Assembly (NCBI GenBank): GCA_049903315.1
Contig: JBNGBT010000010.1
Coordinates: forward strand, 1 to 64,000
Direction: 5' to 3'
Source: Candidatus Cloacimonadota bacterium
Lineage (GTDB): Bacteria > Cloacimonadota > Cloacimonadia > JGIOTU-2
Length of the DNA: 64,000 bases
The notes under the pieces: generated by a model
What the model was told of the DNA's origin: nothing
The model's input: the letters and a program-made list of their open reading frames with translations, nothing else
Database searches by the model: none
Made by a program: the position numbers and the translations under genes
Shown: one piece after another, positions 23,556 to 47,423 of the stretch
Layout of the letters: the number at the start of each line of letters is the position of its first letter
How positions within the stretch are numbered: position 1 is the first letter of the stretch

Positions 23556-25760
23556 TTACATTATACCAAGGAATTGCTGGATTGCAGGGGAGAACGCCAC
23601 GATCATACCGGCGAACACAATACTTACCATGCTCATCAGTTTAATTAGAATATTAATTGAAGGACCGGCAGTATCTTTGAACGGATCACCAACTGTGTCG
23701 CCAACCACACATGCTTTGTGCACTTCAGATCCCTTGCCGCCATAATGCCCGATCTCAACATATTTCTTTGCATTATCCCATGCACCGCCTGAGTTATTCA
23801 TCATGATTGCGAGCGTGAAACCGGTGGTGAGTCCACCAGCCAATAAGCCCATCACACCCGAAACACCAAGAATGAGACCCACAACAATAGGGGTGAGAAT
23901 GCCGAGAAGTGCGGGAGCGACCATTTCTTTCTGCGCTCCTTTAGTGGAAATAAGCACACATTTTGCATACTCGGGTTCGGTTGTTCCTTCCATAATGCCG
24001 GGAAGTTCCTTAAATTGTCTGCGGACTTCGGCAACCATATCGCCAGCAGCTCTTCCAACTGCCTTGAGTGTGAACGCTGCAAAAACAAAGGTGACCATTG
24101 CACCAAGGAAAAGACCAATGAGCATTTTGGGATTCATAAGAGTAATATTATAATGTTCAACAAAGTTGGCAATAGTTGCAGTGCTCAAATCGACACCTGC
24201 GATCATAGTTTCACCTGCGAATTTAAGTCCTGTACGCACTTCTTCAAGATAGGAAGCAAGAAGCGCCATTGCGGTGAGCGCTGCAGAGCCGATTGCAAAT
24301 CCTTTTCCTGTCGCAGCAGTGGTATTTCCCACGGAGTCAAGAGCATCGGTTTTTTCCCGAACTTCTTTTGGTAGCTTGGACATTTCTGCGTTACCGCCAG
24401 CATTGTCTGCAATAGGACCAAACGCGTCCATAGCAAGAGTGACACCAAGCGTGGAAAGCATTCCTACGGCACCAAAACCGATTCCGTATAATCCCATTTC
24501 GGGGATACTAAAACCCTTACTCGCTGCGAAAGCTGCCAGAATTGCGATGGCAATAATGACGACAGGAGCGCCGGTAGATCTCATCCCTACTGCTAGTCCG
24601 TCTATAATAACCGTTGCCGGACCGAACTCTGCCTGTTCAGCGATTCCTTTTGTTGGTTTATAACTATAAGAAGTAGATCGTTCCGTGAATATACCTATCA
24701 GAATACCTGCAAGCAACCCTATTACCATAGCAAAGAATACTCCAAGAGAATATTCAGGAGGAAGCATCCATTTAGTGACAAAAAATGCTACAATTGCAAT
24801 GAGGATCGAGCTGCCGTACACGCCTTTATTTAAGGCAAACATGAGATCTTTTGTCGTGGCGTCCTCTTTGGTGGAAACCAGATAAATTCCAAGTATTGAG
24901 AGGAAAGCACCAATACCTGCGAGAACCATGGGAGCCGTTACAAAACGAATTGCAAGGTCCTGCAATGCGGGAAATTTTATTGAGATTTGTGTGAATGCAG
25001 CCATACCGAGTGCTGCAGTTGCCAGGATCGAACCGGCATAGGATTCATAAAGATCAGCGCCCATACCTGCCACATCACCGACATTATCACCGACGTTATC
25101 TGCAATTGTTGCTGGATTGCGGGGATCATCTTCGGGAATTCCCGCTTCGACCTTGCCCACAAGGTCAGCACCGACATCAGCAGCTTTGGTATAAATACCT
25201 CCGCCGAGTCGTGCAAAAAGTGCCTGTGTGGAAGCACCCATACCAAAACTCAGCATCACAACTGTGATCGTATGAAGATCCATCTTAAAAGTATTGAGTA
25301 CAAAGAACCAAGCGGAGATGTCAACCAGGGCAAGTCCCACGACCACAAGTCCCATCACACCGCCTGCGCGGAAGGCAATGGTGAGTCCTTTATTCAGACT
25401 TTGACGAGCGCCTTGAGCAGTTCTATTGGATGCAAGCGTTGCTGTGTTCATGCCGATCCAGCCTGCGAGACCGCTAAAGAATCCACCGGTCAAAAATGCC
25501 CATGGAATAAGTGGATGAAGTACTTTCAGCACCCATGCCATAATGTTAAAAACGATGAATGCAATGATAAAGAATATTCCTACTCCTCTATATTGCTGCT
25601 TAAGATATGCAAATGCTCCTTCGCGCACATATTTTGCGATTTTCTGCATCTGCTCATTACCCGGGTCTTCTTTTTTTACACTCTTATAAAGAATGAATGA
25701 AAAGATAAGGGCAACTATCGCACCAGCTGGAGCAACAATCCATAACAAAGGGATATTCAT
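23556..25760 (-). CDS. hppA: Membrane-bound K+-dependent ion-translocating pyrophosphatase (Na+,H+-PPase signature)
   Basis: GGGIYTKAADVGADLVGKVE, EDDPRN, DNVGDNVGD, GPIADNAGG, GNTTAATGKG and GDTVGDPFKDT motifs. Confidence 0.97.
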   Translation of the reverse strand: MNIPLLWIVAPAGAIVALIFSFILYKSVKKEDPGNEQMQKIAKYVREGAFAYLKQQYRGVGIFFIIAFIVFNIMAWVLKVLHPLIPWAFLTGGFFSGLAGWIGMNTATLASNRTAQGARQSLNKGLTIAFRAGGVMGLVVVGLALVDISAWFFVLNTFKMDLHTITVVMLSFGMGASTQALFARLGGGIYTKAADVGADLVGKVEAGIPEDDPRNPATIADNVGDNVGDVAGMGADLYESYAGSILATAALGMAAFTQISIKFPALQDLAIRFVTAPMVLAGIGAFLSILGIYLVSTKEDATTKDLMFALNKGVYGSSILIAIVAFFVTKWMLPPEYSLGVFFAMVIGLLAGILIGIFTERSTSYSYKPTKGIAEQAEFGPATVIIDGLAVGMRSTGAPVVIIAIAILAAFAASKGFSIPEMGLYGIGFGAVGMLSTLGVTLAMDAFGPIADNAGGNAEMSKLPKEVREKTDALDSVGNTTAATGKGFAIGSAALTAMALLASYLEEVRTGLKFAGETMIAGVDLSTATIANFVEHYNITLMNPKMLIGLFLGAMVTFVFAAFTLKAVGRAAGDMVAEVRRQFKELPGIMEGTTEPEYAKCVLISTKGAQKEMVAPALLGILTPIVVGLILGVSGVMGLLAGGLTTGFTLAIMMNNSGGAWDNAKKYVEIGHYGGKGSEVHKACVVGDTVGDPFKDTAGPSINILIKLMSMVSIVFAGMIVAFSPAIQQFLGIM

Positions 25761-26106: not shown

Positions 26107-27129
26107 ATGGTCGTTTCAAAATCCGATCTAATTAAATTTTTCAATTCAATACAATCACAGTTTGATATTTTTGCTCCCTATAAAACAGAAAGAGAAAAAG
26201 ACGATCTCGTATTCAAAAAATATGACTCGGATAAAGAATTTGTGCTTGATAAATACCGAACTGTCGATCCTGTAAGGGCTTTATTTTATATGCCTTCCGA
26301 AAGTGTGCTTCCCCCTTCTGCAAAATCCAATAAAAGAATTATTGCAGGAGTGAAAAACTGCGATCTTCTCGGGCTTGCTGTGCTGGACGATGCGCTTCTC
26401 AAAGATAATTTTGTAGAACCAAATTACAAAATCTGGCGAGATAGTTCGTACATCATAAGCTGTGACTGCACCGATGCGCTTCAGACCTGCCATTGTGTTC
26501 TGCTCGACAATAATCCCTACCCGGATCAGGATACGGAAGGCACTATGCTTTTTGATATCAATCTTTCTCCAGTAGACGATAATTTCTTAATCACGGTTGG
26601 GAGTAAGAAGGGTGAAGAGCTGCTCAATATGATAAAAAAAGAATGCTCACTCACAAAAGCTACTGATCATGATAAAGAAAGCCGCGAAGCAAATCATGCT
26701 GAGGTTCTCAAAAAAGTCAGAGATATAAATTCTGATTTTACGCCAGACAGGCATTACGATGTCATTACAGAGAACAAGGAAGCATCTGTGTGGAAAGAGT
26801 TCTGTAATGAATGTGTGCAATGCGGCGCGTGTACGAATATCTGCCCGACCTGTTACTGCCTCATTCTTAATGATGAAAGTACAAAAGAAGAATTCCGTAA
26901 GGTTCGTTCATGGGATTCCTGCCAGCTCGCTGGATATGCTGAGGTTGCAGGAGGCGGCACTCCCCGTGAACACAAATGGGAGACGTTTAGAAATCGCTAT
27001 CAATGCAAATACAATTTTATGAAGTCTAATTTCGATAAATTGGGATGCACAGGATGTGGGCGCTGTATTTCCGCCTGTCCTGCAGAAATCGATTTACGAG
27101 AAGTTATTCAAAGTTTACAGGAGGTTTAG
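26107..27129 (+). CDS. Fe-S protein of HydB/AsrA/FlxB type (sulfhydrogenase beta-like)
   Basis: GVKNCDL, CxxxxxxCHC, CVQCGACTNICPTCYC, WDSCQ and GCTGCGRCISACP motifs. Confidence 0.88.
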   Translation: MVVSKSDLIKFFNSIQSQFDIFAPYKTEREKDDLVFKKYDSDKEFVLDKYRTVDPVRALFYMPSESVLPPSAKSNKRIIAGVKNCDLLGLAVLDDALLKDNFVEPNYKIWRDSSYIISCDCTDALQTCHCVLLDNNPYPDQDTEGTMLFDINLSPVDDNFLITVGSKKGEELLNMIKKECSLTKATDHDKESREANHAEVLKKVRDINSDFTPDRHYDVITENKEASVWKEFCNECVQCGACTNICPTCYCLILNDESTKEEFRKVRSWDSCQLAGYAEVAGGGTPREHKWETFRNRYQCKYNFMKSNFDKLGCTGCGRCISACPAEIDLREVIQSLQEV

Positions 27130-27130
27130 G

Positions 27131-27958
27131 TTGCCAGACAAAAACCCCTACGAAGTATTAAAAGCTGATGTCCTCGAAGTCATCGAAGAATCCCCAACGA
27201 TCAAATCATTCTATCTCAAACCCGAGAAACCATTTGATTTTGCGACAGGACAGTTTATTGAGCTCTCATTACCGGGAATTGGTGAAGCACCATTCACTCC
27301 ATCCTCATCACACTATGAGAGGGAGAAAATGTGGGTGACCATCATGAATGCTGGATTTGTGACCAATGAAATTCACAAAGTCCAAAAGGGTGATGTGATG
27401 GGCATTCGCGGTCCCTATGGAAAGGGCTATCCGCTTGATGTGTTCAAAGGAAAAGACGTGCTTCTTCTTGGTGGCGGTGTGGGGCTTGCTCCACTGCGTT
27501 GTCTCCTTCAGACAATGATCCATGATATTAATGATTACAAAAGCATAACTGTATGCTTTGGGGCTCGCACTCCGGATGACATGATCTATAAAGATCAGAT
27601 TGCTGACTGGAAAAAACACGAAAAAATTCATCATTTATGCACGGTTGATAAGTGCTCTGAGAGTGATATTTGGAAAGGAAAGACCGGTGTCGTGACAATC
27701 CTTCTCGATGATATACAGGTTGATCCCAATGATGCAATTGCTGTCGTATGCGGACCTCCTATCATGATGAAGTTTGGAACTTTCTCTCTGCTTGATAAGG
27801 GCTTCAAGCCGGAAAATATTTATCTCTCAATGGAGAAAAAGATGTACTGCGGGTTCGGTCAGTGTCGCCATTGCGTGATGGGTAAATACTATGCGTGCAA
27901 AGATGGTCCCGTGTTCACCTATGAACAGATCAAAGACGAAGAAAAAATCTGGGATTAA
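27131..27958 (+). CDS. FAD/NAD(P)-binding [2Fe-2S] subunit of HydG/AsrB/FlxA type
   Basis: TGQF, GEAPF, RGPYG, GGGVGLAP, CGPPIMM and CGFGQCRHC...CKDGPVF; start set at TTG 27131 after GGAGG. Confidence 0.9.
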   Translation: MPDKNPYEVLKADVLEVIEESPTIKSFYLKPEKPFDFATGQFIELSLPGIGEAPFTPSSSHYEREKMWVTIMNAGFVTNEIHKVQKGDVMGIRGPYGKGYPLDVFKGKDVLLLGGGVGLAPLRCLLQTMIHDINDYKSITVCFGARTPDDMIYKDQIADWKKHEKIHHLCTVDKCSESDIWKGKTGVVTILLDDIQVDPNDAIAVVCGPPIMMKFGTFSLLDKGFKPENIYLSMEKKMYCGFGQCRHCVMGKYYACKDGPVFTYEQIKDEEKIWD

Positions 27959-27986
27959 GTTTATATATTAAAGGAAAGACAGTATC

Positions 27987-28493
27987 ATGAAAAGATTATT
28001 TGTAGATATACCTAAGCTTCTCAAAGAAGAAAGTCTCGAATGCATTGATTGTGAATATCTGTATCACGAAGGAGCTAATCGTGGTGTATTTTCTATTGTA
28101 GAAATCGCAGAATTCGGCGCGTATTGCCGCCAGTGCAAGGAATCTTTCTGCATTGAAGCATGTCCCAAAGATGCACTTGAGCATAGCAAGACCAATATGA
28201 TATTGCGTCATAATATGCGCTGCGTCGGATGTAAAAGCTGTACACTTGCATGCCCATTTGGTACGATCTTTCCAGAGGTTATTAACTATATTTCTCAGAA
28301 ATGTGATTTCTGTTTAAATCAATTGGAAAATGATCCCAATTATGTTCCGCTTTGTGTAAAAACTGCACCAAATGAGACTTTGACAATGGTCGATATCGAT
28401 GAAGATGATCCTGAGAATAATATTTATCTTGTCGGCAGCAGAATGGCAGTGAAGACACATCACTGGCGCAACAAAGTCGGGAAAAATAAATAG
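27987..28493 (+). CDS. HycB/CooF-like Fe-S electron transfer protein with degenerate first cluster
   Basis: CRQC..C...CP, CVGCKSCTLACP, KCDFC and CVKTAP motifs. Confidence 0.82.
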   Translation: MKRLFVDIPKLLKEESLECIDCEYLYHEGANRGVFSIVEIAEFGAYCRQCKESFCIEACPKDALEHSKTNMILRHNMRCVGCKSCTLACPFGTIFPEVINYISQKCDFCLNQLENDPNYVPLCVKTAPNETLTMVDIDEDDPENNIYLVGSRMAVKTHHWRNKVGKNK

Positions 28494-28521
28494 TGCAGGA
28501 TGATGAGGTTCAGGAGATAAT

Positions 28522-29451
28522 ATGCTAAAATATTTGTTCTATTTGCTCGTGTTCCCGGGCTTTCTGTTTGCATCTGTATTTGGTCTAATTGTTGGATGGA
28601 TAGAAAGAAAAGTAAGCGCACGAGTACAATTCCGCGTTGGTCCTCCATTTTTTCAGAATTTTTATGACGTGTTCAAGCTGTGGGGAAAAGAGATCATTCT
28701 TATAAGAAATACACCCTATTTCATATTTGTCGTTGCACCGATCATTGCTTTTGCGACAGTGATCATGACCTCGACATTAGTAGGTGTGACTTTCTTTTAT
28801 GGAATTGGTATCGGCGGAGATCTGCTTTTCATTATATATCTTATGGTCATATATTCCGTCGCGATGATACTCGGAGCATCCTCGACGGGGAACGTATATT
28901 CCAGTATCGGTGCCGGTAGAGAGATGAAAATGCTTATCTCAGATGAATTGGCTTTCGTGCTGGTTATCCTTGTTCCCATTATTCATGCAGGATATAAGAT
29001 CGATCTCACACAAATTTTAGCATATCAAAGTGCCAATGGCATGATCATTGGAACTGCATCAGGTATTATTGCGTTCATAGTCGGCATACTCTGCCTTCAA
29101 GCAAAGATGGGTATGATCCCCTTTGATATTGCGGAAGCAGAAACTGAAATTGTCGAAGGTCCACTCATGGAATATTCCGGACCATTGCTCGCATTCTGGA
29201 AACTGGCACATTATATGATGTATGTCTTCCTGCCGATGCTTTTGGTTATCCTTTTCTGGGGTGGCATGAGCTTTGCTTCATTCGGATCGATCATGGCTGG
29301 CATAGGAAAGTATCTGCTTATTGTCGTGATTATGATCCTTATCAGAAATACAAATCCCCGTGTGCGTATTGACTCTGCAATTAATTTTTTCTGGAAATGG
29401 GCAAGCCCCCTTGCTCTTATCGCCGTAATTCTGGCAATCATAGGAGTGTAA
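28522..29451 (+). CDS. Hydrogenase membrane subunit, NuoH/HycD/MbhM-like
   Basis: ERKVSARVQFRVGPP, PFDIAEAETEIVEGPLMEYSG and NPRVRID motifs. Confidence 0.93.
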   Translation: MLKYLFYLLVFPGFLFASVFGLIVGWIERKVSARVQFRVGPPFFQNFYDVFKLWGKEIILIRNTPYFIFVVAPIIAFATVIMTSTLVGVTFFYGIGIGGDLLFIIYLMVIYSVAMILGASSTGNVYSSIGAGREMKMLISDELAFVLVILVPIIHAGYKIDLTQILAYQSANGMIIGTASGIIAFIVGILCLQAKMGMIPFDIAEAETEIVEGPLMEYSGPLLAFWKLAHYMMYVFLPMLLVILFWGGMSFASFGSIMAGIGKYLLIVVIMILIRNTNPRVRIDSAINFFWKWASPLALIAVILAIIGV

Positions 29452-29454
29452 ATT

Positions 29455-29874
29455 ATGGCTTTTTATAATAAAATTATTAAGAAATCAATCTGGGTTTTTC
29501 ATGTGAGTGCAAGCCCGTGCAACAACTGCGATATTGAAATTCTCGATCTTATCACACCCGGATATGATGTGGAACGCTTCGGTATCAAACTTGTCGGCTC
29601 AGTCCGTCATGCTGATGTTCTTCTTGTAACTGGGGTGGTTTCCTACAAAGTTGCACCACGCATCAAACAATTATATGAGCAAGCAGCCAAACCTCTATTT
29701 GTAATCGGTATCGGAACGTGTACTGCCGGAGGTGCGACCTTCAAAACAAGTTACAATGCAGCAGGAATCCCACTTGAAAAGGTCATTCCTGTCAATGCCT
29801 ATGTCACAGGCTGTCCTCCGAAACCCGAAGCGATGATAGATGGCGTAGTAAAATTATTAGGAACATTAAAATGA
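29455..29874 (+). CDS. Group 4 [NiFe]-hydrogenase small subunit (NuoB/MbhJ-like)
   Basis: CNNCDIE, DVERFG, RHADVLLVTG, GTC and GCPPKPE motifs. Confidence 0.94.
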   Translation: MAFYNKIIKKSIWVFHVSASPCNNCDIEILDLITPGYDVERFGIKLVGSVRHADVLLVTGVVSYKVAPRIKQLYEQAAKPLFVIGIGTCTAGGATFKTSYNAAGIPLEKVIPVNAYVTGCPPKPEAMIDGVVKLLGTLK

Positions 29875-30320
29875 GCGATAAAGGCACAGAATTTTTTGAA
29901 AAATTTCAGGATAAATTAACGAGAGTTATCAAAAAGCCAAGAAGAAATTATTTCAATATAAAGAACGAAGACCTCTGGGAGATCGCAGATTATCTCTTCA
30001 ACACAATGGGATGCCGTCTCTCGATTTGTACTGCGACAGAAGTATATGACGGACTCGAAGTTCTTTACCATTTCTCAGACGACACAACCGGGATCTATTA
30101 TAATCCCCGCGTCAAAACCAGTCTGGAAAATCCTGAAATAAATTCCATCGCACCAATGATCGCTGGTGCGAACTGGATCGAAAGAGAAATGTACGATCTT
30201 TTTGGCATTAAATTTAAAGGACATCCCGATCTGAAAAAACTGCTGACGATCAATAGTCCGCATTTTGGCGAGGATGACCATCCTATGCGTTTTAATCGCA
30301 ACAGAACGAAAGAGAAGTAA
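29871..30320 (+). CDS. NuoC/MbhK-like subunit
   Basis: YHFS and ANWIEREMYDLFGIKFKGHP motifs. Confidence 0.92.
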   Translation: MSDKGTEFFEKFQDKLTRVIKKPRRNYFNIKNEDLWEIADYLFNTMGCRLSICTATEVYDGLEVLYHFSDDTTGIYYNPRVKTSLENPEINSIAPMIAGANWIEREMYDLFGIKFKGHPDLKKLLTINSPHFGEDDHPMRFNRNRTKEK

Positions 30321-30344
30321 CAGGTTTATGCAGAGGAGCATGCA

Positions 30345-31562
30345 ATGAGTAAATGTAGAATTCCTTTAGGTCCTTTTCATCCATTATTGGAAGAAGCGGA
30401 ATTCTTTGATATAAAAGTCGAAGGTGAAAAAGTAGTTGATATCGAAATGGAAACCGGTTGGATGCATAGAGGTCATGAAAAGATCTCAGAGACCAAATCT
30501 TTTACACAATCAATATTTCTGGTTGAACGTATCTGCGGAATTTGTTCAACATCCCATCCTTTCGCAGCAGTGCATGCTATGGAAGATATAGATAATGTTG
30601 AAATTCCTGAAAGAGCACAATATATAAGAATTTTTATTGGTGAGATGGAACGTATTCACAGCCATCTGCTCTGGCTTGGTCTTGCCGGACATTTTATAGG
30701 ATATGACACGCTCTGGATGTGGGCTTGGAAATATCGTGAACCTGTTTTGCAAATTTTCGAAAAAGTATCCGGTAATAGAAATCACTATGCAATGATGCGT
30801 GTTGGTGGAGTAGGCAGAGATTTTGATAATTCCCTGATCCCAGAAATTCACCCTACTCTTGATATGATAGAGAAGAAAATGCTGATGATCGCTGGTGCTG
30901 CACAAGATGATCCTGTACTTCGCTCACGACTGAAAGGTGTTGGCGTTCTTACAAAAGAAGATGCAATAAATTATTGCGCTAATGGTCCAACTGCACGTGC
31001 ATCCGATGTTGATATAGACGTACGTCGAGATGATCCTCTCGAGTATGATCTCGTAGATTTTAACGTTATCGTTTTACCAAACGGAGACGTGTATGATAAG
31101 TTAGTTGTTCGTGTTCTCGAGATTATAGAGTCCATAAAAATTATCAGACAATGTCTCGAAGCATTTCCAAAAGTTGGAGGAGAATATTTAAATAAAGTGA
31201 AGCATATTTCCCCAGGAGAAGGATGCGGAAGATACGAAGCACCACGCGGCGAAGTTTTCCACTACATCAGAAGTGATGGGTCGAACCGACCTCTCCGTCA
31301 TAAAGTTCGTGCACCCAGTTTTTCAAATATTCCGACATATAAAGCTTCATGCGTAGGCATTCCTCTTGCTGATGCACTTATCACACTTGCTGCTGTTGAT
31401 CCATGCTATTGCTGTACAGAGCGAAGTATTCGTGTTGTCGATAAAAATAATAAGAAATTAGAACATAATCTATTAACCATGTCTCGTGAGAAAACTGCAC
31501 ATCTGAAAAAAGCAGTTGCAGGCAACGAGAAAACACCCATTGATAGAATTTTTGAAGATTAG
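30345..31562 (+). CDS. Group 4 [NiFe]-hydrogenase large subunit (MbhL/NuoD-like; group 4g-like architecture)
   Basis: GPFHP, HRGHEK, L1 RICGICSTSH, EAPRGE and L2 DPCYCCTER with all four metal-binding Cys, followed by a 45-aa C-terminal extension. Confidence 0.94.
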   Translation: MSKCRIPLGPFHPLLEEAEFFDIKVEGEKVVDIEMETGWMHRGHEKISETKSFTQSIFLVERICGICSTSHPFAAVHAMEDIDNVEIPERAQYIRIFIGEMERIHSHLLWLGLAGHFIGYDTLWMWAWKYREPVLQIFEKVSGNRNHYAMMRVGGVGRDFDNSLIPEIHPTLDMIEKKMLMIAGAAQDDPVLRSRLKGVGVLTKEDAINYCANGPTARASDVDIDVRRDDPLEYDLVDFNVIVLPNGDVYDKLVVRVLEIIESIKIIRQCLEAFPKVGGEYLNKVKHISPGEGCGRYEAPRGEVFHYIRSDGSNRPLRHKVRAPSFSNIPTYKASCVGIPLADALITLAAVDPCYCCTERSIRVVDKNNKKLEHNLLTMSREKTAHLKKAVAGNEKTPIDRIFED

Positions 31563-31587
31563 GAATTCAAGAAGAAAGGGTACATAA

Positions 31588-33402
31588 ATGTGGAATAATT
31601 ATCTTTTTTTGCTTGTCGTTATACCGATAATTGCAACCATTATTAATCTTTTTGTACCAAAGATTATAAAGAAACTTATCACTCTTGCTTCTGTGATTTG
31701 GTCGCTTGTGCTGAGCATCAAAGTATTCAGTGCAGCCGCTTTCAGCTTTTCTCTATTCGGTGTCACACTATTTCAGACTGATGTTTTATCAAAGTTCATT
31801 CTGCTTTTCATAAATATCTTGAGCACAATAATTCTGATTTACTGCCTGAAAAATGTAAAAAAGGAATATGAAGGAAAATTCTTCCTGCTTTTTACGCTGA
31901 CCGTGAGTTTCTGCAACGGTGTTGCCCTGAGTTCCAATATGATCGCTTTTATAATTTTCTGGGGACTTTCAGGTTTGCTTGTATATTTGTTTGGTATTTT
32001 AAACTCACCGAGAAGTGCAGAAAGCTCAAGAAAAGCATTTATTATCATTGGAACATCAGACGTGCTTCTTCTTTTCGGGTTGGTCGTCATGTACGTAATG
32101 ACCCAGAATTTCAATCTTTATCTAAACCAAATAACTCTTTCCAGTGTGTTGACCTACGTGGCATTTTTCTGCTTGCTTCTTGCTTCATTTGCAAAAGCCG
32201 GAGCTTTCCCGATGCATACCTGGCTTCCAGATTATGCAAAGGACGCTCCCATCGAAGCAGTCGCAGAACTCCCCGCTGCAATGGACAAGCTTCTCGGCAT
32301 TTATCTTTTTGCACGTATTATGATGCATCTCTTTGTCTATCCCTTTGCGATCCAGGGAATCATTATGATCATCGGCGCTTTGACGATTATTTTTGCTGTG
32401 ATGATGGCACTGGTTCAGCATAATGGCAGAAAGCTTCTCGGATATCATGCGGTCAGCCAGGTTGGTTATATGGTTCTGGGAATAGGAACCGGTAATCCAA
32501 TCGGTATAATTGGCGGACTTTTTCATATGCTTAACAATGCGATATACAAATCGAGCTTGTTCCTTTCTCTCGGTTCTGTTGAAAAAAGAACAGGAACTTC
32601 CGAGCTTGATGACCTTGGTGGACTAGCAAAAAAGATGCCGCTTACCTTTATCGCTGCATTAATAGGAGCTCTGTCGATTTCCGGTATTCCACCATTAAAT
32701 GGATTTTTCTCAAAATGGATGGTTTATCAAAGTGTTTTAAAAACTGCGTCACAGCATGGCTCGATCTGGCAGATAGTTCTGAATGTGTGCTTTGTGCTCG
32801 CAGTGTTCGGAAGCGCACTTACCCTAGCAAGCTTTGTTAAGTTCATCCATGCAATATTTTTGAGCAAATTACCAAAAAAATATGAAGGCGTGAAAGAGAT
32901 CAGCTTCAATAACTGGTTTGCAAACCTTTTACTTGGCGCTCTTTGTGTCATATTTGGAGTGCTCGTGTTTGCAATTCCGGTGAAGCTCTTCTTGCTTCCC
33001 ATCATTGGTGCAGGTACTATAAAAACATTGTTAATCGGATTCTATAGCTCGAAAGTTATTTTATATTTCTTTGCAGCTTCTATCCTGCTTGGTCTTATCA
33101 TCTATATTGTGTTTAAGAAGATCAGATTCGACGATGAATATGTCGGAACTTATCCTACGACTGACGAGCACAGGGCAACTGGTGTAGAGTTCTACAATGA
33201 AATCTCTTCAATGAAACCTTTCAATAAGATCTACGAGTGGGCAAATAAGAAATATTTTGATATATATAAATGGGGGACAGTGTTCTCCTTATGGCTTGGT
33301 GATGTTTTCCATAAACTGCATTCCGGACTGTTGCATACATATGCGATCTGGACGCTTGCAGGTCTGGTTGTAGTCACTATAATTTTATTAAGTGCAATTT
33401 AG
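31588..33402 (+). CDS. Antiporter-like subunit (NuoL/MrpA/HycC-type)
   Basis: AKAGAFPMHTWLP, LLGYHAVSQVGYM, FHMLNNAIYKSSLF and GIPPLNGFFSKW motifs. Confidence 0.9.
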   Translation: MWNNYLFLLVVIPIIATIINLFVPKIIKKLITLASVIWSLVLSIKVFSAAAFSFSLFGVTLFQTDVLSKFILLFINILSTIILIYCLKNVKKEYEGKFFLLFTLTVSFCNGVALSSNMIAFIIFWGLSGLLVYLFGILNSPRSAESSRKAFIIIGTSDVLLLFGLVVMYVMTQNFNLYLNQITLSSVLTYVAFFCLLLASFAKAGAFPMHTWLPDYAKDAPIEAVAELPAAMDKLLGIYLFARIMMHLFVYPFAIQGIIMIIGALTIIFAVMMALVQHNGRKLLGYHAVSQVGYMVLGIGTGNPIGIIGGLFHMLNNAIYKSSLFLSLGSVEKRTGTSELDDLGGLAKKMPLTFIAALIGALSISGIPPLNGFFSKWMVYQSVLKTASQHGSIWQIVLNVCFVLAVFGSALTLASFVKFIHAIFLSKLPKKYEGVKEISFNNWFANLLLGALCVIFGVLVFAIPVKLFLLPIIGAGTIKTLLIGFYSSKVILYFFAASILLGLIIYIVFKKIRFDDEYVGTYPTTDEHRATGVEFYNEISSMKPFNKIYEWANKKYFDIYKWGTVFSLWLGDVFHKLHSGLLHTYAIWTLAGLVVVTIILLSAI

Positions 33403-33418
33403 TTTTAAGGAGGCTTAA

Positions 33419-33958
33419 GTGCCAGTTGATGTTTGGTTGTACTTTATTTTAGGATTCATGATAATCGGTTCGATTGCCAGTCTGGAAATAAAGAACATAC
33501 TTTCTTCGATCATAACCATTGGTGTGGTTGGATTGGGTTTGTCTTTAGCATTCCTTTTCTTGGGAGCTCCGGACCTTGCACTTGTTCAGTTCGTGTTCGA
33601 AATTCTCTGTGTGATCATCTTGATTCGCGCATTTGCAAAACGTTCTATCGAAGTTCGTGCCCTCCGTAGAGATGTTCCCGAAACAGTTGTTGCAATTGTC
33701 ATACTTGCGAGCATTTTTGTGCTGAGTATTTTTGCATTCAAGGATCTGCCTTCATTCGGAAAGCCGATCGTGCGCGTCGCTGAGCGCTATCTCGCTCAAG
33801 CAGGAGTGGAAACCGGTTCTCAAAATATCGTCACCTCCGTTATTCTGAACTATAGGATATATGACACGCTTGGTGAGGTTACAGTGCTTTTTACTGCGAT
33901 CTTAGGTGCATTCACCATATTACGTAAAACAGGGAGGAAAAAAAGACATGCAGAATAA
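33419..33958 (+). CDS. MbhD-MbhE-like fusion (MrpA C-terminal / MrpB N-terminal parts)
   Basis: LGAPDLALVQ and NIVTSVILNYRIYDTLGEVTVLF motifs; GTG start after AAGGAGG. Confidence 0.88.
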   Translation: MPVDVWLYFILGFMIIGSIASLEIKNILSSIITIGVVGLGLSLAFLFLGAPDLALVQFVFEILCVIILIRAFAKRSIEVRALRRDVPETVVAIVILASIFVLSIFAFKDLPSFGKPIVRVAERYLAQAGVETGSQNIVTSVILNYRIYDTLGEVTVLFTAILGAFTILRKTGRKKRHAE

Positions 33959-34397
33959 TTTTCCCAATGAAGGTATGTCCGTAATTGTCAAAACAATTAC
34001 CCGATTTACTGTGTGGTTGATCTTCTTATACGGTCTTTATATAGTTCTTCATGGTCATCTTTCCCCAGGCGGCGGTTTTGCGGGCGGTGTGATCATTGCA
34101 CTTTCTTATGTTCACCTGACACTTGCATATGGTAAAAATTTTGTACTGGAGCGAGTAGATAAATTTGCGATGAGCAGTCTGGAATCTATTGCTGCGATCC
34201 TCTTTGTGCTTACAGGCATTATTGGCTTATATGTGATCGGCAATTTCCTTGCAAACTTTATGGGAATCGGCAAACTTTATACACTTATTAGTGCCGGATA
34301 CATCCCTATGTTAAACATATTTATTTGTGTGAAGGTCGGCATGGGATTGTATCTCGTGTTCTACTATTTAGCCAGTTTTAAACCCCAGGAAGGATAA
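33948..34397 (+). CDS. MrpB/MnhB/MbhF-like subunit
   Basis: HGHLSPGGGFAGG motif; start set at ATG 33948 after GGAGG. Confidence 0.9.
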   Translation: MQNNFPNEGMSVIVKTITRFTVWLIFLYGLYIVLHGHLSPGGGFAGGVIIALSYVHLTLAYGKNFVLERVDKFAMSSLESIAAILFVLTGIIGLYVIGNFLANFMGIGKLYTLISAGYIPMLNIFICVKVGMGLYLVFYYLASFKPQEG

Positions 34398-34400
34398 GAT

Positions 34401-34745
34401 ATGATATTATATATAATGTGCTTTTTCCTCTTTTTGGTTGGTGTATACGGCGCGATCACAAAAAGAGATCTGATTAAGATAATACTTGCAATTGGTATCA
34501 TGGGTTATTCCGTAAATCTATTCCTCGTTCTTCTTGCATACCGTACTGGTGCACTTGTTCCGATCCTGAAAGAAGGACTTAATATTCCTGCAAGCATGAT
34601 GGTCGATCCTATTCCTCAAGCTCTTGTCCTAACTTCTATTGTTATTGAACTTGGTGTCACTGCACTTATGGCTGCGCTTGCGATTAGGATCTATCAAAAA
34701 TATGACACATTTGATATTACGAAGATCAGGAGATTACAAGGATGA
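34401..34745 (+). CDS. MrpC/MnhC/MbhG-like subunit
   Basis: DPIPQALVLTSIVI motif, three TMs. Confidence 0.92.
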   Translation: MILYIMCFFLFLVGVYGAITKRDLIKIILAIGIMGYSVNLFLVLLAYRTGALVPILKEGLNIPASMMVDPIPQALVLTSIVIELGVTALMAALAIRIYQKYDTFDITKIRRLQG

Positions 34746-36247
34746 CACTATCACAGTTTATTTTCGTCCCTTTACTCGCCGCATTTCTCATAGCTCTCTT
34801 TGCCCGTAAAAAGGAAAATATCGCTGCTGCTATTGCACTGGCTGCCTGTGCGTGGCTATTGATCGTTTCGTTCATTGCGTTCTTTAAACTCCCTGCACAC
34901 GGAGGTATGATCCTCAACAACACAAGTGGATGGAGTATACCCTATACGATCAGCTTGATCCTGGATAATCTCTCGGCATTTATGCTGATAGTGGTGAACC
35001 TTGTTGCTTTTCTTTCTGCATTCTATGCAATACAGTATATAAATCATTTCAACGGCAAATGGAATTTTTTTGCACTTTTTATGCTGATGCTAACAGGAAT
35101 GAACGGAGTGATACTTACAGGAGACTTCTTCAATTTATATGTTTTCATGGAGATATCACTCATTTCCGCCTATGCTCTTGTTGCCTTTGGTACGGAATCT
35201 GAAGAGCTGGAGGCATCATTCAAATATGCGACAATGGGTGCAATTACATCTACCATGATTCTGTTCGGTATTGGAATACTCTACAGTTATACTTCCACGC
35301 TTACAATGGCAGATGTAGGGCTTCAGCTAAGAAATACCGGAACTCCAAAACTGCTTTTCCTTGTGTATGGTTTATTTATTGCGGGTTTTGGTTTGAAAAC
35401 AGCATTGGTTCCCTTCCATGCATGGCTTCCTGATGCACATCCCTCAGCCCCGGCTCCGATATCTGCAATGCTCTCAGGGGTGCTTATTAAAACACTGGGA
35501 GTCTATGCGATTGTGAGAATTTTCTTTAATGTATTCGGAGCACCAACTGTTGTACTGCAAATTCTCATGTTGCTTGGTACTCTTTCTATAGTGATTGGAG
35601 GATTTCTCTCTGTCGTGCAATGGGATTTCAAACGATTACTAGGATTCAGCAGTATTAGCCAGATTGGGTATGTTGTCGTTGGTTTTGCACTCGGCACACC
35701 TCTCGGTATTCTCGGTGGTATCTTACATCTTTTCTATCATTCGATCTTCAAATCACTGCTCTTCTTGGACAGTGGGGCTGTCGAATATGCGACCGACACA
35801 CGGGATTTACGCCAGTTAGGCGGTCTATCAAAAGAGATGAAGGTCACTTCTACGACGACAATGGTTGGCACTTTATCTATTTCAGGAATTCCGCCATTCA
35901 ATGGATTTTTCAGCAAACTCATCATTATCATTGCATGTATTTCTGCTGGACAGATCGTTGTGGGTATTATTGCAGCGTTAGTGAGTATTGTTACTCTCGC
36001 ATACTTCCTGAAAGTTCAAAAGCATGCATTCTTTGGCAAAAAGGGATCTGCAAAAGTACTTGAAAAAGTTCCCTTTGCTATGAAAACAGCGATGATCATC
36101 TTAGCTGCATTGTGCCTGATAACTTCCGCAATTATGATTCCCTCAATTAGAAAACAATATCTGAATCCCATAGTGGATACCGTTATGGGAAAAACTTCAT
36201 ATATCGACAAGGTCGAGCCCTATCTTGATAATGGGAGTGTTAAATGA
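34742..36247 (+). CDS. MrpD/MnhD/MbhH-like antiporter subunit
   Basis: DFFNLYVFMEI, LEASFKY, KTALVPFHAWLPDAHPSAPAPISAMLSG and GIPPFNGFFSK motifs. Confidence 0.93.
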   Translation: MTLSQFIFVPLLAAFLIALFARKKENIAAAIALAACAWLLIVSFIAFFKLPAHGGMILNNTSGWSIPYTISLILDNLSAFMLIVVNLVAFLSAFYAIQYINHFNGKWNFFALFMLMLTGMNGVILTGDFFNLYVFMEISLISAYALVAFGTESEELEASFKYATMGAITSTMILFGIGILYSYTSTLTMADVGLQLRNTGTPKLLFLVYGLFIAGFGLKTALVPFHAWLPDAHPSAPAPISAMLSGVLIKTLGVYAIVRIFFNVFGAPTVVLQILMLLGTLSIVIGGFLSVVQWDFKRLLGFSSISQIGYVVVGFALGTPLGILGGILHLFYHSIFKSLLFLDSGAVEYATDTRDLRQLGGLSKEMKVTSTTTMVGTLSISGIPPFNGFFSKLIIIIACISAGQIVVGIIAALVSIVTLAYFLKVQKHAFFGKKGSAKVLEKVPFAMKTAMIILAALCLITSAIMIPSIRKQYLNPIVDTVMGKTSYIDKVEPYLDNGSVK

Positions 36248-36747
36248 AGATAGAAACAAAGAGCAGGATCGTTGTCTTTATCCTTTCCGTATTAGTGTGG
36301 ATATTGATAACGATGGTTTTCAGTATTTCTTCCTTAGTCGCAGGCATTATCGTTGCATTGATAACCGCGATATTTGCTGGAGAGATGCTGATCGTTACAG
36401 AAAGAAAATTTCATCTTAAACGAGTATGGTACACACTTGAATATCTGGTAAAGTTTACATGGGAACTGATCAAAGCAAATTTCCATGTGGCATATATTGT
36501 GATTCACCCCCTCCTTCCTATCAAGCCCGGTATCGTGAAAGTGAGAACGAAACTCAAAAGAGATTCTGCACTAACCATGCTTGCCAATTCAATAACCCTA
36601 ACTCCCGGAACATTAACTGTTGATGTTGACGTCGATAATCAAGTTCTCTACGTGCACTGGATAGACGTAAAATGTACCGATATAGACGAAACCACGGAAG
36701 AAGTGGGTGGTCGCTTTGAAAAACTACTCGAGGAGATCTTTGAATGA
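36244..36747 (+). CDS. MrpE/MnhE/MbhA-like subunit
   Basis: LANSITLTPGTLTVD and LYVHWI motifs. Confidence 0.93.
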   Translation: MKIETKSRIVVFILSVLVWILITMVFSISSLVAGIIVALITAIFAGEMLIVTERKFHLKRVWYTLEYLVKFTWELIKANFHVAYIVIHPLLPIKPGIVKVRTKLKRDSALTMLANSITLTPGTLTVDVDVDNQVLYVHWIDVKCTDIDETTEEVGGRFEKLLEEIFE

Positions 36748-37085
36748 GAGTTTTTAGATGGTTTTTAGGTTTACTTTTCATTGCAGCATTCTTTATAATA
36801 AATTTTGTTGTATTCACTGAAATTCCCTTTAATTATAAGTTGATCAATGTGCTCCTTTTCTGCTCGCTGTTCATACTTATACGAGTGGTGAAAGGACCTT
36901 CAGTTGCAGATCGTATTGTTGCTATTGATATTCTAGGTATTCTGATCATAGGAATATGTGCGATACTTGCGATTGCATTGCAGCGCTCATATTTCATAGA
37001 TATTGGTATCGCCTGGGGTCTGCAGAGTTTTATCGGAGCTTTAGCGCTTGCCAAATTCTTAGAAGGGAGGTCACTCGATGCCTGA
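36744..37085 (+). CDS. MrpF/MnhF/MbhB-like subunit
   Basis: GPSVADRIVAID and LAKFLEG motifs. Confidence 0.92.
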   Translation: MRVFRWFLGLLFIAAFFIINFVVFTEIPFNYKLINVLLFCSLFILIRVVKGPSVADRIVAIDILGILIIGICAILAIALQRSYFIDIGIAWGLQSFIGALALAKFLEGRSLDA

Positions 37086-37437
37086 TCTTGCAATTAATCA
37101 AATTATCGGCTATGTAATTATTTGTATTGGCATCATTTTTGATCTTTTTGGTGTGCTCGGACTTGTACGCCTTCCCGATGTATATAACCGTCTTCAGGCA
37201 GCCACGAAGAGTGTGACTTTTGGTTCTGCAGGGATACTGTTCGGTGTGTTTGTCTATTCAGGTTTCAATGCAATGGGCTTCAAGGCAATCTTAGCTGCAA
37301 TATTTGTTCTTTTGACTTCACCCGTATCTGCACATGCTATTGCAAAAGCTGCCCACAAAGCAGGCATCAAATTGACCGACAAGACAATCATTGATCTATA
37401 TCGCCAGGATAAAGACAAGAGTGAGGAACAGAAATGA
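37078..37437 (+). CDS. MrpG/MnhG/MbhC-like subunit
   Basis: RLPDVYNRLQAATK and TSPVSAHAIAKAA motifs. Confidence 0.93.
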   Translation: MPDLAINQIIGYVIICIGIIFDLFGVLGLVRLPDVYNRLQAATKSVTFGSAGILFGVFVYSGFNAMGFKAILAAIFVLLTSPVSAHAIAKAAHKAGIKLTDKTIIDLYRQDKDKSEEQK

Positions 37438-38045
37438 TAATTCCAAAACTTAGAGAATTAGGTGAAGCAATAACATCACTTTTTTCAAAACCAATAACAA
37501 GTAAGTATCCTTTTACAAAGAAACCCTATGAACCGGTGAAACAGTTCAAAGGAAAGCCGATATATAATGAAGAAGAGTGTGTCGGCTGCGGCTCATGTGC
37601 TCAAGTATGTCCTGCTGGTGCGATTGAAATGATCGATATTCCAGAAGAAGGCAAGCGCATCATGCAGGTGAGTTATACACACTGTATTCGCTGTGGCCAA
37701 TGTGAGGAACATTGTATTACACAAAAAGGGATCAAGCTTTCTAATGAATACATCTCAGCTACTTTCAGCCCCGCGCGCGAAGCCGATATGATGAGTATAG
37801 AAAAGAAACTCATTGTCTGTCCTGTTTGTGGAACAAAGATCGCTACGGAAGATCATATGAACTGGCTTGCAGAAAAATTAGGTCCAAAAGCTTATGGTAA
37901 TCCAAATCTTCTCGCTTTCATTCAACTTCGCTATCAGGATCTCCCGGATGCAAAAATAAAGAAGGATAAACTTAGAAGAGAAGATTATTATAAATTGATG
38001 TGTCCGCGCTGTAGGCACCAGGTTGTTGTCGAAGATGCATTCTGA
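37434..38045 (+). CDS. NuoI/HycF/MbhN-like 2x[4Fe-4S] subunit with extra C-terminal CxxC pairs
   Basis: TSKYPF, CVGCGSCAQVCP, CIRCGQCEEHC, CPVCG and CPRCR motifs. Confidence 0.92.
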   Translation: MIIPKLRELGEAITSLFSKPITSKYPFTKKPYEPVKQFKGKPIYNEEECVGCGSCAQVCPAGAIEMIDIPEEGKRIMQVSYTHCIRCGQCEEHCITQKGIKLSNEYISATFSPAREADMMSIEKKLIVCPVCGTKIATEDHMNWLAEKLGPKAYGNPNLLAFIQLRYQDLPDAKIKKDKLRREDYYKLMCPRCRHQVVVEDAF

Positions 38046-38516
38046 TGAGTTAAAAAAATTATTTACATCCATAAAAGATAAACGAACCCTATTTGTGGGG
38101 CTGGGAAATTATCAACGCGGAGATGATGCCGCAGGTTTATATATTGTTGAGCAACTGCAATCAAAATGTAAAAAAAAAAAGTTACATATCTGATCGCAGA
38201 AACAACTCCAGAAAATTATTTGAATACCCTCATTTCCAAAGATATTGATATAATAATTTTTTTTGATGCGTGCAGGCTACCGTCAGATGCGGGAGAGGTA
38301 AAAATCTTAGATCCTAAAGAAATAAGCACATTCTCGACTTCTACGCATACGAGCTCCATGAGTGTGATCATCGACTATATTCATAAGTTATCTGATGTAA
38401 AGATCAAAGTAATTGGCATTAATGTAAAAAGTGCTCATTTAGGAACGGAAATTTCACCGGAAATAAAAGAGAGTGCTGATTCTCTTATAATGATGATAAA
38501 AAATGCAACAAGCTGA
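38035..38516 (+). pseudogene. hycI: Hydrogenase maturation protease (HycI family) split by a frameshift at an A11 tract
   Basis: Frame from ATG 38035 gives MHSDELKKLFTSIKDKRTLFVGLGNYQRGDDAAGLYIV...CKKKKLHI, stop 38191-38193; the -1 frame from 38181 gives VTYLIAETTPENYL...IIFFDAC...STSTH...; one extra A restores a 160-aa protein. Confidence 0.88.
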
Positions 38517-43105: not shown

Positions 43106-44266
43106 ATGCCGGACCAATTTGAGACAACTCTCCACAAAATTTATAAGACCCTCTTGCTGATCTTCCTTATCTATCTTTTCTTTCTGAGTATCGTTATGAT
43201 GGGAGCTGGTTTTAAAGGTTTTCATGGCTTGTCTGAAAGTCTTATTAAAAGTGTGAGCAATCCGATAATGGGATTACTCATAGGAATTTTAGCCACCAGC
43301 ATTGTGCAGAGTTCTTCCACTACCACTTCTATCGTTGTAGGACTCGTTGCCAGTAATATTCTTGGGGCAGACTCCATCCGTATTGCGATCCCGATCATAA
43401 TGGGAGCCAATATAGGAACGACAATTACAAATACACTTGTATCTCTGGGACATATTTCAAGAACAGACGAGTTCAAGAGAGCCTATAGTTGCGCTATTGT
43501 GCATGATATATTCAATATTTTGGCAGTAATAATTCTGCTGCCATTAGAAATATATTTCGGAGTAATAGAAAAAATTTCTCTTAAACTAGGTTCATTTATC
43601 CTGCATGCAAATATTCAAGGTGCGGAGTTCAAAAGTCCCCTTGGATTAATAACAAAACCCATTGTCGGATTTCTGTATAATTCAAAATTTCCCAGTGCTT
43701 CGCCAGGACTGTTGCAAAAGATATTTCCCCCAACAATTGCCCAGATATTGATCCTTGTATTAGCCCTGGTATTCTTATTTATTGCGTTGAGATTTATGGT
43801 AAAAGTAATACGCGAGCTGGTTATAGGAAAGGTGGAACAGTTCTTTTCTGACTACATATTCCGGAATGCTGTTCTTGCACTGCTTCTTGGTCTTATTCTC
43901 ACTGCAATCGTTCAAAGCAGCTCGATCACGACGTCAATTATGATCCCGCTGGCAGGTGCAGGGATAGTGAATATCTACCAAGTTTTCCCATATACTGTAG
44001 GTGCCAATATAGGAACGACTGTGACTACTTTATTGGCAGCCATGGCAACGTGTTCACCTGCGGCACTTGTTGTCGCGATATCTCATTTCACGTTCAATGT
44101 GCTTGGAATGATTATCATACTTCCTTTCAAACCCGTGAGAATGATCCCAATCAAAATCGCATTAGCAGCTTCAAATATGACAATGAAAAGCAAATTATAT
44201 CCAATATTATTTATCGCTTTGATATTTTTTATCATACCGGTACTTTTACTGGTCATTATGAAATAA
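43106..44266 (+). CDS. Na+/phosphate cotransporter (NptA/SLC34-like)
   Basis: Two inverted repeats each with VQSSS and GANIGTT. Confidence 0.93.
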   Translation: MPDQFETTLHKIYKTLLLIFLIYLFFLSIVMMGAGFKGFHGLSESLIKSVSNPIMGLLIGILATSIVQSSSTTTSIVVGLVASNILGADSIRIAIPIIMGANIGTTITNTLVSLGHISRTDEFKRAYSCAIVHDIFNILAVIILLPLEIYFGVIEKISLKLGSFILHANIQGAEFKSPLGLITKPIVGFLYNSKFPSASPGLLQKIFPPTIAQILILVLALVFLFIALRFMVKVIRELVIGKVEQFFSDYIFRNAVLALLLGLILTAIVQSSSITTSIMIPLAGAGIVNIYQVFPYTVGANIGTTVTTLLAAMATCSPAALVVAISHFTFNVLGMIIILPFKPVRMIPIKIALAASNMTMKSKLYPILFIALIFFIIPVLLLVIMK

Positions 44267-44295
44267 TTAGTTAATACCCGAATTCGAGGTAAAAA

Positions 44296-44991
44296 ATGAT
44301 TAAAGAATTAATTGCACTATTCAAAAAAAGTAATCTCTATAAAGAGGCACACGAAGATGCCTGTGGCATGCTTAACCGGGCTAATAATATGTTCGATAAT
44401 GCAAGTGCTAAATTGCGCGGAAGAGAAATTCCACATCCTGATGTTGATATTTTCTATGAGGAAAGAAAAGTAGATAAAGCGGAACGCGCCGTACGCAAGA
44501 AAGTGTTAATACACCTCTCGGCTTCCGGCACAATGGATACACCCGGAGCAATAACTCTTATCGGCATAGTTATAGATATTGAGAGAGTGGGTGACTATAC
44601 TACCAATATACTCGAACTTGCAAGAGTAGCGAAAATACAATTGCATGCAGGTATTCTTGAAAATGAACTCACAGAGATTGAATGCGAAATAGAACGTCTT
44701 TTTGATGTCGTGAGCCAGGCATTTGAAGAATATAATAAAGAAGAAGCCGAATCTGTAATTAATAAAAAACTTACAAGACGGTGCGAAGCATTACTCAATA
44801 GACTCATTACGGAAGACCTTGGAATGAATGTTCAGACAGCAGTAATTGCCGCTTTGTATGTTCGTTATCTAAAGAGGATCGCAGCACATCTTCTAAATAT
44901 TGCCACGTCTCTTGTACAACCATTTGAGAAGGTGCGTTTCATGCCGGAAAATGTTACTCAGAAATATACAAAAAAGTCAGAAAATGAGTAA
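44296..44991 (+). CDS. PhoU-domain protein
   Basis: DIERVGDYTTNI and YLKRIAAHLLNIA helical repeats; follows Na/Pi cotransporter. Confidence 0.85.
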   Translation: MIKELIALFKKSNLYKEAHEDACGMLNRANNMFDNASAKLRGREIPHPDVDIFYEERKVDKAERAVRKKVLIHLSASGTMDTPGAITLIGIVIDIERVGDYTTNILELARVAKIQLHAGILENELTEIECEIERLFDVVSQAFEEYNKEEAESVINKKLTRRCEALLNRLITEDLGMNVQTAVIAALYVRYLKRIAAHLLNIATSLVQPFEKVRFMPENVTQKYTKKSENE

Positions 44992-45673: not shown

Positions 45674-45674
45674 G

Positions 45675-47420: not shown

Positions 47421-47423
47421 ACC

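What the first reader, a model, noticed from the sequence alone, without database searches (positions are those of the whole stretch)
26107..38045. NAD(P)H-binding HydB/HydG module at the head of an Mrp-coupled group 4 [NiFe]-hydrogenase operon: a candidate NAD(P)(H)-linked ion-pumping hydrogenase
Seen: 16 tightly packed same-strand genes encoding HydB/AsrA-like, HydG/AsrB-like (FAD, NAD(P), 2Fe-2S), HycB-like, NuoH/B/C-like, a large subunit with intact L1/L2 cysteines, NuoL-like, a full MbhD/E-F-G-H-A-B-C (Mrp) set and NuoI-like proteins. The usual partners of HydBG-type pairs (HydA/HydD, AsrC, HdrABC) are absent from the window. Known: characterised Mbh/Ech enzymes use ferredoxin, and other group 4 enzymes use formate or CO dehydrogenase as input; neither input gene is here. 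Inference: the complex links NAD(P)H/NAD(P)+ to H+/H2 with ion translocation. It would either pump ions during H2-dependent NAD(P)+ reduction or use the gradient for uphill H2 evolution from NAD(P)H, as syntrophs need. Similar group 4g-type clusters probably occur in other uncultured genomes, so the novelty may be biochemical more than genomic.
Basis: partly seen in the sequence, partly recalled or inferred. Interest (0 to 1): 0.85.

Follow-up and report, generated by a model that had tools for sequence, protein, structure and literature searches.

The report
Hun hydrogenase operon, likely NADH-fed
This is a real 16-gene operon for a membrane-bound nickel-iron hydrogenase joined to a sodium/proton antiporter, already named "Hun" in 2021; its flavoprotein module likely feeds it NADH rather than the ferredoxin assumed in print, but no such enzyme was found to have been tested.

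Summary
In detail: 16 tightly packed genes (26107-38045), followed by hycI and hypFCDE. The operon is not new. It matches the published Hun group 4g complex (Glass et al.), and this scan reported it before on other DNA. The closest relatives are Ca. Celaenobacter (Cloacimonadota).

The NAD(P)H-type head (hunABC) precedes the large subunit in 102 of 105 loci with room. In two of the other three it sits further upstream, behind an inserted MBX-like cassette. HunB folds like Pyrococcus SHI-gamma but has an invariant Asp (131 of 131) at the NADH-type position. AsrC, HydA and MvhD are mostly absent from Hun genomes. NADH input is therefore likely (untested), against the ferredoxin model in print; Bird et al. 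had already mentioned NADH loosely.

Extras: the NuoL-like subunit lacks the TM5 glutamate (142 of 147). The maturation protease gene is out of frame at an A10-A12 run in 13 of 18 family genomes, a candidate for transcriptional slippage. Co-folding was not available.

The parts
26107..27129 (+). hunA: SHI-beta/AsrA-like Fe-S subunit (16 conserved Cys, up to 4 clusters)
   Evidence: (9nez_B, E 9e-32)
27131..27958 (+). hunB: SHI-gamma/AsrB-like FAD/NAD(H)/[2Fe-2S] subunit; Asp173 at the NADH-type position
27987..28493 (+). hunC: HycB/DmsB-like, 3 predicted [4Fe-4S] clusters (ligands of one cluster lost)
28522..29451 (+). hunD: NuoH/MbhM-like membrane anchor
29455..29874 (+). hunE: small subunit (NuoB-like), 4 Cys conserved in 75 of 75
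29871..30320 (+). hunF: NuoC-like
30345..31562 (+). hunG: [NiFe] large subunit, CGIC...CYCC, 45-residue C-terminal extension after Arg360
   Evidence: (MbhL 6cfw_L, E 7e-81)
31588..33402 (+). hunH: NuoL/MrpA-like antiporter subunit; TM5 Glu replaced by Gly126, invariant Asp233-Lys234
33419..33958 (+). hunI: MbhD+MbhE fusion
33948..34397 (+). hunJ: MbhF/MrpB (probable start 33948; the ORF opens at 33906)
34401..34745 (+). hunK: MbhG/MrpC
34742..36247 (+). hunL: MbhH/MrpD antiporter subunit with canonical Glu137, Lys219, Lys250, Lys392
36244..36747 (+). hunM: MbhA/MrpE
36744..37085 (+). hunN: MbhB/MrpF
37078..37437 (+). hunO: MbhC/MrpG
37434..38045 (+). hunP: HycF/NuoI-like, two [4Fe-4S] motifs plus an extra four-Cys site; best PDB match is E. 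coli HycF
38035..38516 (+). hycI-like maturation protease in two reading frames, switching at an A11 run (38170-38180); candidate transcriptional slippage
38503..43093 (+). hypF, hypC, hypD, hypE maturation genes

Best explanation
The operon encodes the Hun membrane-bound [NiFe]-hydrogenase-Mrp complex, which likely takes electrons from NADH through its own flavoprotein module and passes them to protons, with predicted coupling to Na+/H+ movement. Inferred path: NADH, FAD and [2Fe-2S] of HunB, clusters of HunA, HunC, HunP, HunE, then the NiFe site of HunG. This would join an SHI-beta/gamma input to a formate-hydrogenlyase-like HycB-HycF wire. The reaction lies near equilibrium, so direction would follow H2 pressure: uphill and driven by the ion gradient above about 10-100 Pa, downhill near or below 1 Pa. 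In this fermenter, which has Rnf but no [FeFe] or group 3b hydrogenase, it would serve mainly as the H2-evolving NADH outlet. Shown: genes, motifs, synteny, absent partners. Inferred: assembly, NADH use, direction, ion coupling.
For: Synteny: hunA-hunB-hunC precede hunG in 102 of 105 loci with at least 5.5 kb upstream (178 examined), across about 11 phyla by record title. In Cloacimonadota, 29 of 35 hunG genomes have hunA on the same contig, and the other 6 contigs are too short. HunB model: pLDDT 91, TM 0.91 to NADPH-bound SHI-gamma 9nf0_C. The four [2Fe-2S] Cys are kept in 131 of 131, the NAD-loop glycines and CGPP in 130-131 of 131, and Asp173 in 131 of 131. Asp173 aligns with the Asp of NAD-dependent PyrK. 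Partners are missing in 69 Hun genomes: AsrC-like 1 (below cut-off), ShyA-like 5, MvhD absent from 32. The own genome (96% complete) has no AsrC, [FeFe] hydrogenase, CODH or full-score FDH. Rex-like boxes (at most 2 mismatches) lie upstream of hunA in 20 of 117 loci, against 3 of 2340 shuffles.
Against: No biochemistry exists for any member in the papers found. No HunC fusion to another subunit was found (weak test). In two genomes a whole MBX-like cassette separates hunAB from hunC, so gene order is not inviolable. The Asp rule is not exact: NqrF, an NADH enzyme, has Ser in that column and Asp in the next. The HMMER alignment to SHI-gamma is out of register in this loop, so the Thr-Arg versus Asp contrast was placed by eye. 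The window has no Rex box and the genome no Rex. NADH to H2 yields only about 3-10 kJ/mol at 1 Pa, against 10-17 kJ per ion, so pumping in that direction is marginal. HunH lacks the TM5 Glu. The loci are related and partly redundant.
Confidence: 0.5

Rival explanations
1. Dual input: the complex accepts ferredoxin (at HunC or HunP) as well as NAD(H), evolving H2 mainly from ferredoxin and using HunAB as a side branch.
For: Bird et al. write 'ferredoxin or NADH'. The core is closest to ferredoxin-fed MBH. The genome has 2-oxoacid:ferredoxin oxidoreductase-like genes.
Against: By inference, a shared wire would short-circuit ferredoxin to NAD+ without pumping and would compete with Rnf (window 54099-59307). 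HunB is a single-FAD FNR-type protein with no recognised bifurcating site.
Confidence: 0.2
2. Published Hun model: HunABC only relay electrons from ferredoxin to the NiFe site, and NAD(H) is not a substrate.
For: Stated by Glass et al.. Group 4g is listed as 'ferredoxin-coupled (putative)', and Williams et al. assume ferredoxin for Cloacimonadota 4g.
Against: The whole pyridine-nucleotide domain, including Asp173, is invariant. The nearest structure has NADPH bound. A ferredoxin relay would not need FAD and a nucleotide site.
Confidence: 0.15
3. Uptake direction: H2 reduces NAD+ and the complex pumps ions, supporting growth on H2.
For: Ca. Celaenobacter was proposed to oxidise H2. H2 to NAD+ yields 12-26 kJ/mol at 1e4-1e5 Pa.
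Against: It needs H2 far above what is usual in sediments and anoxic water (recalled). Rex boxes in relatives fit induction by excess NADH. Mvh-Hdr already provides uptake.
Confidence: 0.1
4. HunAB are co-transcribed but act separately, as a soluble diaphorase or as an Flx-like partner of Hdr-MvhD or of the MBX-like complex.
For: HdrABC-MvhD and an MBX-like complex exist in this genome. hunAB directly precede an MBX-like cassette in G001 and G002.
Against: MvhD is absent from 32 of 69 Hun genomes. Several Cloacimonadota keep a separate AsrA-like paralog beside mvhD. The MBX-like complexes carry their own NuoI-GltD fusion.
Confidence: 0.05

Closest known systems
Hun complex, HunA-P (Glass et al., bioRxiv 10.1101/536078; passages read, figures not seen)
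   Same: 16 genes; AsrA/AsrB-like head without AsrC; Mrp module; large-subunit motif CGIC-CYCC; a variant with a molybdopterin-domain gene between hunB and hunC (5 such loci seen here).
   Different: This member is from Cloacimonadota, a phylum not named in that text. HunC has 3 clusters here; many Atribacteria-type members have 4. The donor is read here as NADH; the paper says ferredoxin.
Pyrococcus furiosus MBH (PDB 6CFW, HydDB group 4d)
   Same: Best solved match of the large subunit; MbhA-H type Mrp module.
   Different: MBH uses ferredoxin and has no flavoprotein head (recalled). Hun has a second, NuoL-like antiporter subunit and a HycB/HycF-like wire.
Pyrococcus furiosus sulfhydrogenase SHI beta/gamma (PDB 9NEZ, 9NF0; group 3b)
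   Same: HunA and HunB are homologous in sequence; HunB is also matched in fold (TM 0.91).
   Different: SHI is soluble, uses NADPH and has group 3b alpha/delta subunits. HunB has Asp where SHI-gamma has Thr-Arg (placed by eye).
E. coli formate hydrogenlyase (PDB 7Z0S; group 4a)
   Same: HycB-like and HycF-like relay (HycF is the best match of HunP); HycI-type protease.
   Different: No FdhF here; a full Mrp set is present; HunC has lost one cluster.
Anaerobic sulfite reductase AsrABC; FlxABCD-HdrABC
   Same: Use the same AsrA/AsrB-type NAD(P)H module.
   Different: The catalytic partners AsrC and MvhD/Hdr are not linked and are often absent. The labels 'sulfite reductase subunit B' on Hun members are likely misannotation.

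Membership tests
Hun complex | 16-gene operon with hydrogenase, P-module and Mrp module | tested here: met
   against the text; letters A-P assigned from gene order and text, figure not seen
Hun complex | AsrA/AsrB-like HunAB without AsrC | tested here: met
Hun complex | Large-subunit motif CGIC-CYCC | tested here: met
   CYCC in 172 of 174 homologs
Hun complex | Same clade as Atribacteria HunG (RXG63129) | tested here: inconclusive
   58-59% identity and the same gene order as Atribacteria loci L075 and L079; the accession itself was not among the 15 of 176 members listed; no tree built
HydDB group 4g | HydDB classifier assignment | not testable with these tools
   Ca. Celaenobacter's Mrp-linked enzyme (95% identical in L001) and HunG are given as 4g
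Group 4 [NiFe]-hydrogenase | L1/L2 cysteines, small-subunit cluster, maturation genes | tested here: met
   four Cys in 174 of 174; hypFCDE adjacent; hypA on C33; hycI is out of frame
MBH (group 4d) | Ferredoxin input with no oxidoreductase module | tested here: not met
   flavoprotein head linked in 102 of 105 loci
Group 3b sulfhydrogenase | HydA/HydD partner subunits | tested here: not met
   the only other NiFe large subunit is Vhu/Mvh-like with mvhD and hdr
AsrABC | Siroheme subunit AsrC | tested here: not met
   no PF01077 match in the genome; 1 of 69 weak match in relatives
NADH-linked ion-translocating hydrogenase | NADH:H+ activity coupled to ion transport | not testable with these tools
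   needs biochemistry; co-folding was not available

The most novel reading that the evidence does not exclude
Hun is a complex-I-like machine that runs directly between NADH and H2. An SHI-type NADH module is wired through a shortened HycB/HycF relay to an ion-coupled [NiFe] site. One antiporter subunit is rewired (TM5 Glu lost, TM8 Asp-Lys gained) to suit a very small energy span. In this family, activation is gated by polymerase slippage in the maturation protease gene.
Probability: 0.35. Interest if true: 0.75.

Novelty: new member of a known kind. Interest (0 to 1): 0.38.

Why it matters
The characterised group 4 hydrogenases take electrons from ferredoxin, formate or CO. An ion-coupled NADH:H+ enzyme would give fermenters and syntrophs a direct, gradient-driven way to vent NADH as H2, and a living analogue of a step between hydrogenases and complex I. 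It would also correct genome models that treat 4g enzymes as ferredoxin-fed and read their asrA/asrB genes as sulfite reduction. Cultured Kosmotoga carry the operon according to Glass et al., so the test can be done. The genomic discovery itself is not new.

Tried and rejected
Co-folding of HunA with HunC: the complex predictor was not available, so the interface is untested.

A search for longer, fused forms of HunC found none (weak).

Orphan HydAD, AsrC, FDH and CODH as partners were rejected for this genome. The other two HydG-like hits are PyrK and NqrF.

Apparent loss of hunAB in L001, L009 and L021 was rejected: it reflects a cassette insertion or a second contig. L123 was not followed up.

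The idea that a 4-cluster HunC goes only with the molybdopterin gene did not hold: 31 loci without an insert also have 15 or more Cys.

Promoter and terminator scans were at chance level. There is no Rex box in the window.

Two RNA runs hold contigs of relatives, mostly 85-99% alike, over 25 and 22 of 30 bins; DNA carry-over is not excluded, so this does not show expression.

An outgroup of group 4g enzymes without hunAB was sought and not obtained, so it is unknown whether the TM5 change is specific to Hun. No tree was built.

Paper search was swamped by the word 'hung'. Nobu et al. 2016 was not held. PMC4549626, PMC5946492 and PMC10579422 held nothing relevant.
Full report
Observation. The 16 genes are present on the + strand at 26107-38045, with gaps of at most 28 bp or short overlaps. 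Family scans confirm each label. The large subunit has both metal-binding motifs and is closest to MbhL among solved structures. hycI and hypFCDE follow directly. The closest large subunits are from Cloacimonadota, 95% identical in Ca. Celaenobacter antarcticus.

It is a described system. Glass et al. (bioRxiv 10.1101/536078; passages read) named a 16-subunit operon Hun. It has AsrA/AsrB-like HunAB without AsrC, a group 4g HunG with CGIC-CYCC, and an Mrp module, and occurs in Atribacteria, other MAGs and Kosmotoga isolates. They propose ferredoxin as the donor. Matheus Carnevali et al. (PMC6349859, passages) saw asrA, asrB and cooF beside an Mrp hydrogenase in Saganbacteria. Bird et al. (PMC6469976, passages) wrote that the Atribacteria complex accepts electrons from ferredoxin or NADH. 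Meheust et al. (10.1101/765248, passages; author name recalled) call the oxidoreductase function unknown. Williams et al. (PMC8542988, passages) list an Mrp-linked 4g enzyme for Celaenobacter and assume ferredoxin. HydDB calls 4g uncharacterised (PMC5037454, passages). Searches showed no biochemical study. The library lacks most subscription papers. I read no supplements, those of the preprints are closed, and they may say more. This scan has reported the same system on other DNA.

Linkage. I examined 178 loci: 80 from genomes, 80 from metagenomes and 18 fetched regions. Of these, 105 had at least 5.5 kb upstream of hunG, and 102 had hunA, hunB and hunC there. For two of the three exceptions, hunAB lie 17-19 kb upstream on the same contig, with an Mrp-MBX-like cassette inserted between hunB and hunC; the third (L123) was not checked. 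Among 177 Cloacimonadota genomes, 35 have hunG. Of these, 29 have hunA on the same contig, and the other 6 contigs begin less than 3.9 kb upstream (counted by hand). These genomes are related and some loci are redundant.

Other partners. The own genome (96.4% complete) has one other NiFe large subunit, Mvh-like, in an hdrABC-mvhD-tfrAB-mvhGA cluster. It has no AsrC-family gene, [FeFe] hydrogenase or CODH. Its only molybdopterin-family protein is a NuoG-GltD fusion that scores 186 of 666 bits as FDH. In 69 Hun genomes, MvhD is missing from 32, an AsrC-like hit occurs in 1 (below cut-off), and ShyA-like hits occur in 5. Completeness was given for only 34 of the 69.

The input module. HunB folds confidently (pLDDT 91) and matches NADPH-bound SHI-gamma best (TM 0.91). 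In 131 homologs the four [2Fe-2S] cysteines and Asp173 are invariant, and the NAD-loop residues are kept in 130-131. Asp173 aligns with the Asp of NAD-dependent PyrK. SHI-gamma has Thr-Arg at the end of the same strand, placed by eye. A D239T change is listed as switching cytochrome b5 reductase from NAD to NADP (PMC5817062, table passage); its equivalence to Asp173 is recalled, not aligned here. NqrF has Ser in that column, so the rule is not exact. HunA keeps 16 cysteines. HunC keeps 12, having lost the ligands of one cluster; from memory, that cluster faces the molybdoenzyme in NarH-type proteins. HunP is closest to E. coli HycF. Rex-like boxes lie upstream of hunA in 5 of 58 and 15 of 59 loci, against 0 of 1160 and 3 of 1180 shuffles, but not in the window, whose genome shows no Rex.

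The membrane arm. HunL keeps the canonical charged residues. HunH has Gly in place of the TM5 Glu in 142 of 147 homologs, where MBS, MrpA and MbhH structures have Glu, and it has an invariant Asp-Lys in TM8. A lower ion-to-electron ratio is a possible reading but is untested. A Na+-type pyrophosphatase lies divergently upstream and rnf lies 16 kb downstream.

Mechanism. Most likely, NADH is oxidised at HunB and electrons run through HunA, HunC, HunP and HunE to the NiFe site, with ion movement through the Mrp-type arm. Taking NAD at -320 to -280 mV, NADH to H2 costs 1-9 kJ/mol at 100 Pa and yields 3-10 kJ/mol at 1 Pa, against 10-17 kJ per ion. The enzyme would therefore sit near equilibrium, using the gradient at higher H2 and conserving little at low H2.

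Side finding. The hycI-like gene is split between two frames at an A11 run (38170-38180). Of 19 family genomes examined (one per species), 18 could be scored. Thirteen are out of frame, all with runs of 10-12 A (11 need +1, 2 need -1), including 10 of 10 in the genus. Five are in frame, with runs of 6-9 A. All 40 distant loci are in frame with shorter runs. Both halves are under purifying selection (dN/dS 0.19 and 0.14 over 7 loci), and A/T runs of 10 or more occur only 19 times in the genome. Two DNA assemblies show no indel there, though they may be the source. Transcriptional slippage is the likely reading. Cross-processing by the Mvh protease on C33 is an alternative. A paper search and a scan search found nothing on it.

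Verdict. A real operon and a new member of the known Hun kind. The value lies in residue-level support for NADH input and in the slippage candidate. Interest 0.38.

Noticed in passing
window 38035-38516 (A11 at 38170-38180); L203-L221: The hycI-like protease gene is out of frame at an A10-A12 run in 13 of 18 scored family genomes, and both halves are under purifying selection. It is a candidate for transcriptional slippage controlling hydrogenase maturation.
   Followed up: partly
L097:4310-16784, L098:1998-14425: A complete Mrp-MBX-like cassette (no NiFe cysteines, NuoI-GltD fusion; in L097 also a CoA-disulfide-reductase-like gene) is inserted between hunB and hunC.
   Followed up: partly
window 31588-33402: The NuoL-like subunit lacks the TM5 glutamate in 142 of 147 homologs and has an invariant TM8 Asp-Lys.
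   Followed up: partly
window 54099-59307 (-) and 23556-25760 (-): An rnf operon and a sodium-type pyrophosphatase flank the hydrogenase region.
   Followed up: partly
G000:C70:69054-69992 (L103): The ATP synthase has a 245-aa subunit with three c-type hairpins beside an ordinary c subunit, all keeping the Glu. This may give a hybrid c-ring; the Na+-type motif is judged from memory.
   Followed up: no
G000:C44 (L094:4516-15107): The genome has its own Mrp-MBX-like complex with a NuoI-GltD fusion, a second membrane complex with a predicted NAD(P)H module.
   Followed up: no
G000:C2 (L093:6396-12212): NuoE/NuoF/NuoG-GltD cluster beside a glutamate-dehydrogenase-like gene, resembling a bifurcating NfnABC-type enzyme (family label recalled).
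   Followed up: no
L057:17031-18104: HunP is fused to a CBS-domain pair; separate CBS genes lie next to hunC in L001 and L065. Possible nucleotide-sensing regulation.
   Followed up: no
L171, L172, L173, L178, L192: A molybdopterin-family gene of about 470-580 aa lies between hunB and hunC, the variant mentioned by Glass et al..
   Followed up: partly
G147, G145, G120, G125, G135, G136 and other family f15 genomes: Many mvhD copies carry one in-frame TGA, suggesting selenocysteine; several sit beside a second AsrA-like paralog, as in Flx-type clusters.
   Followed up: no
window 43106-53132: A Na/Pi transporter, phoU, a two-component pair and a pstSCAB-like ABC set follow hypE on the same strand.
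   Followed up: no
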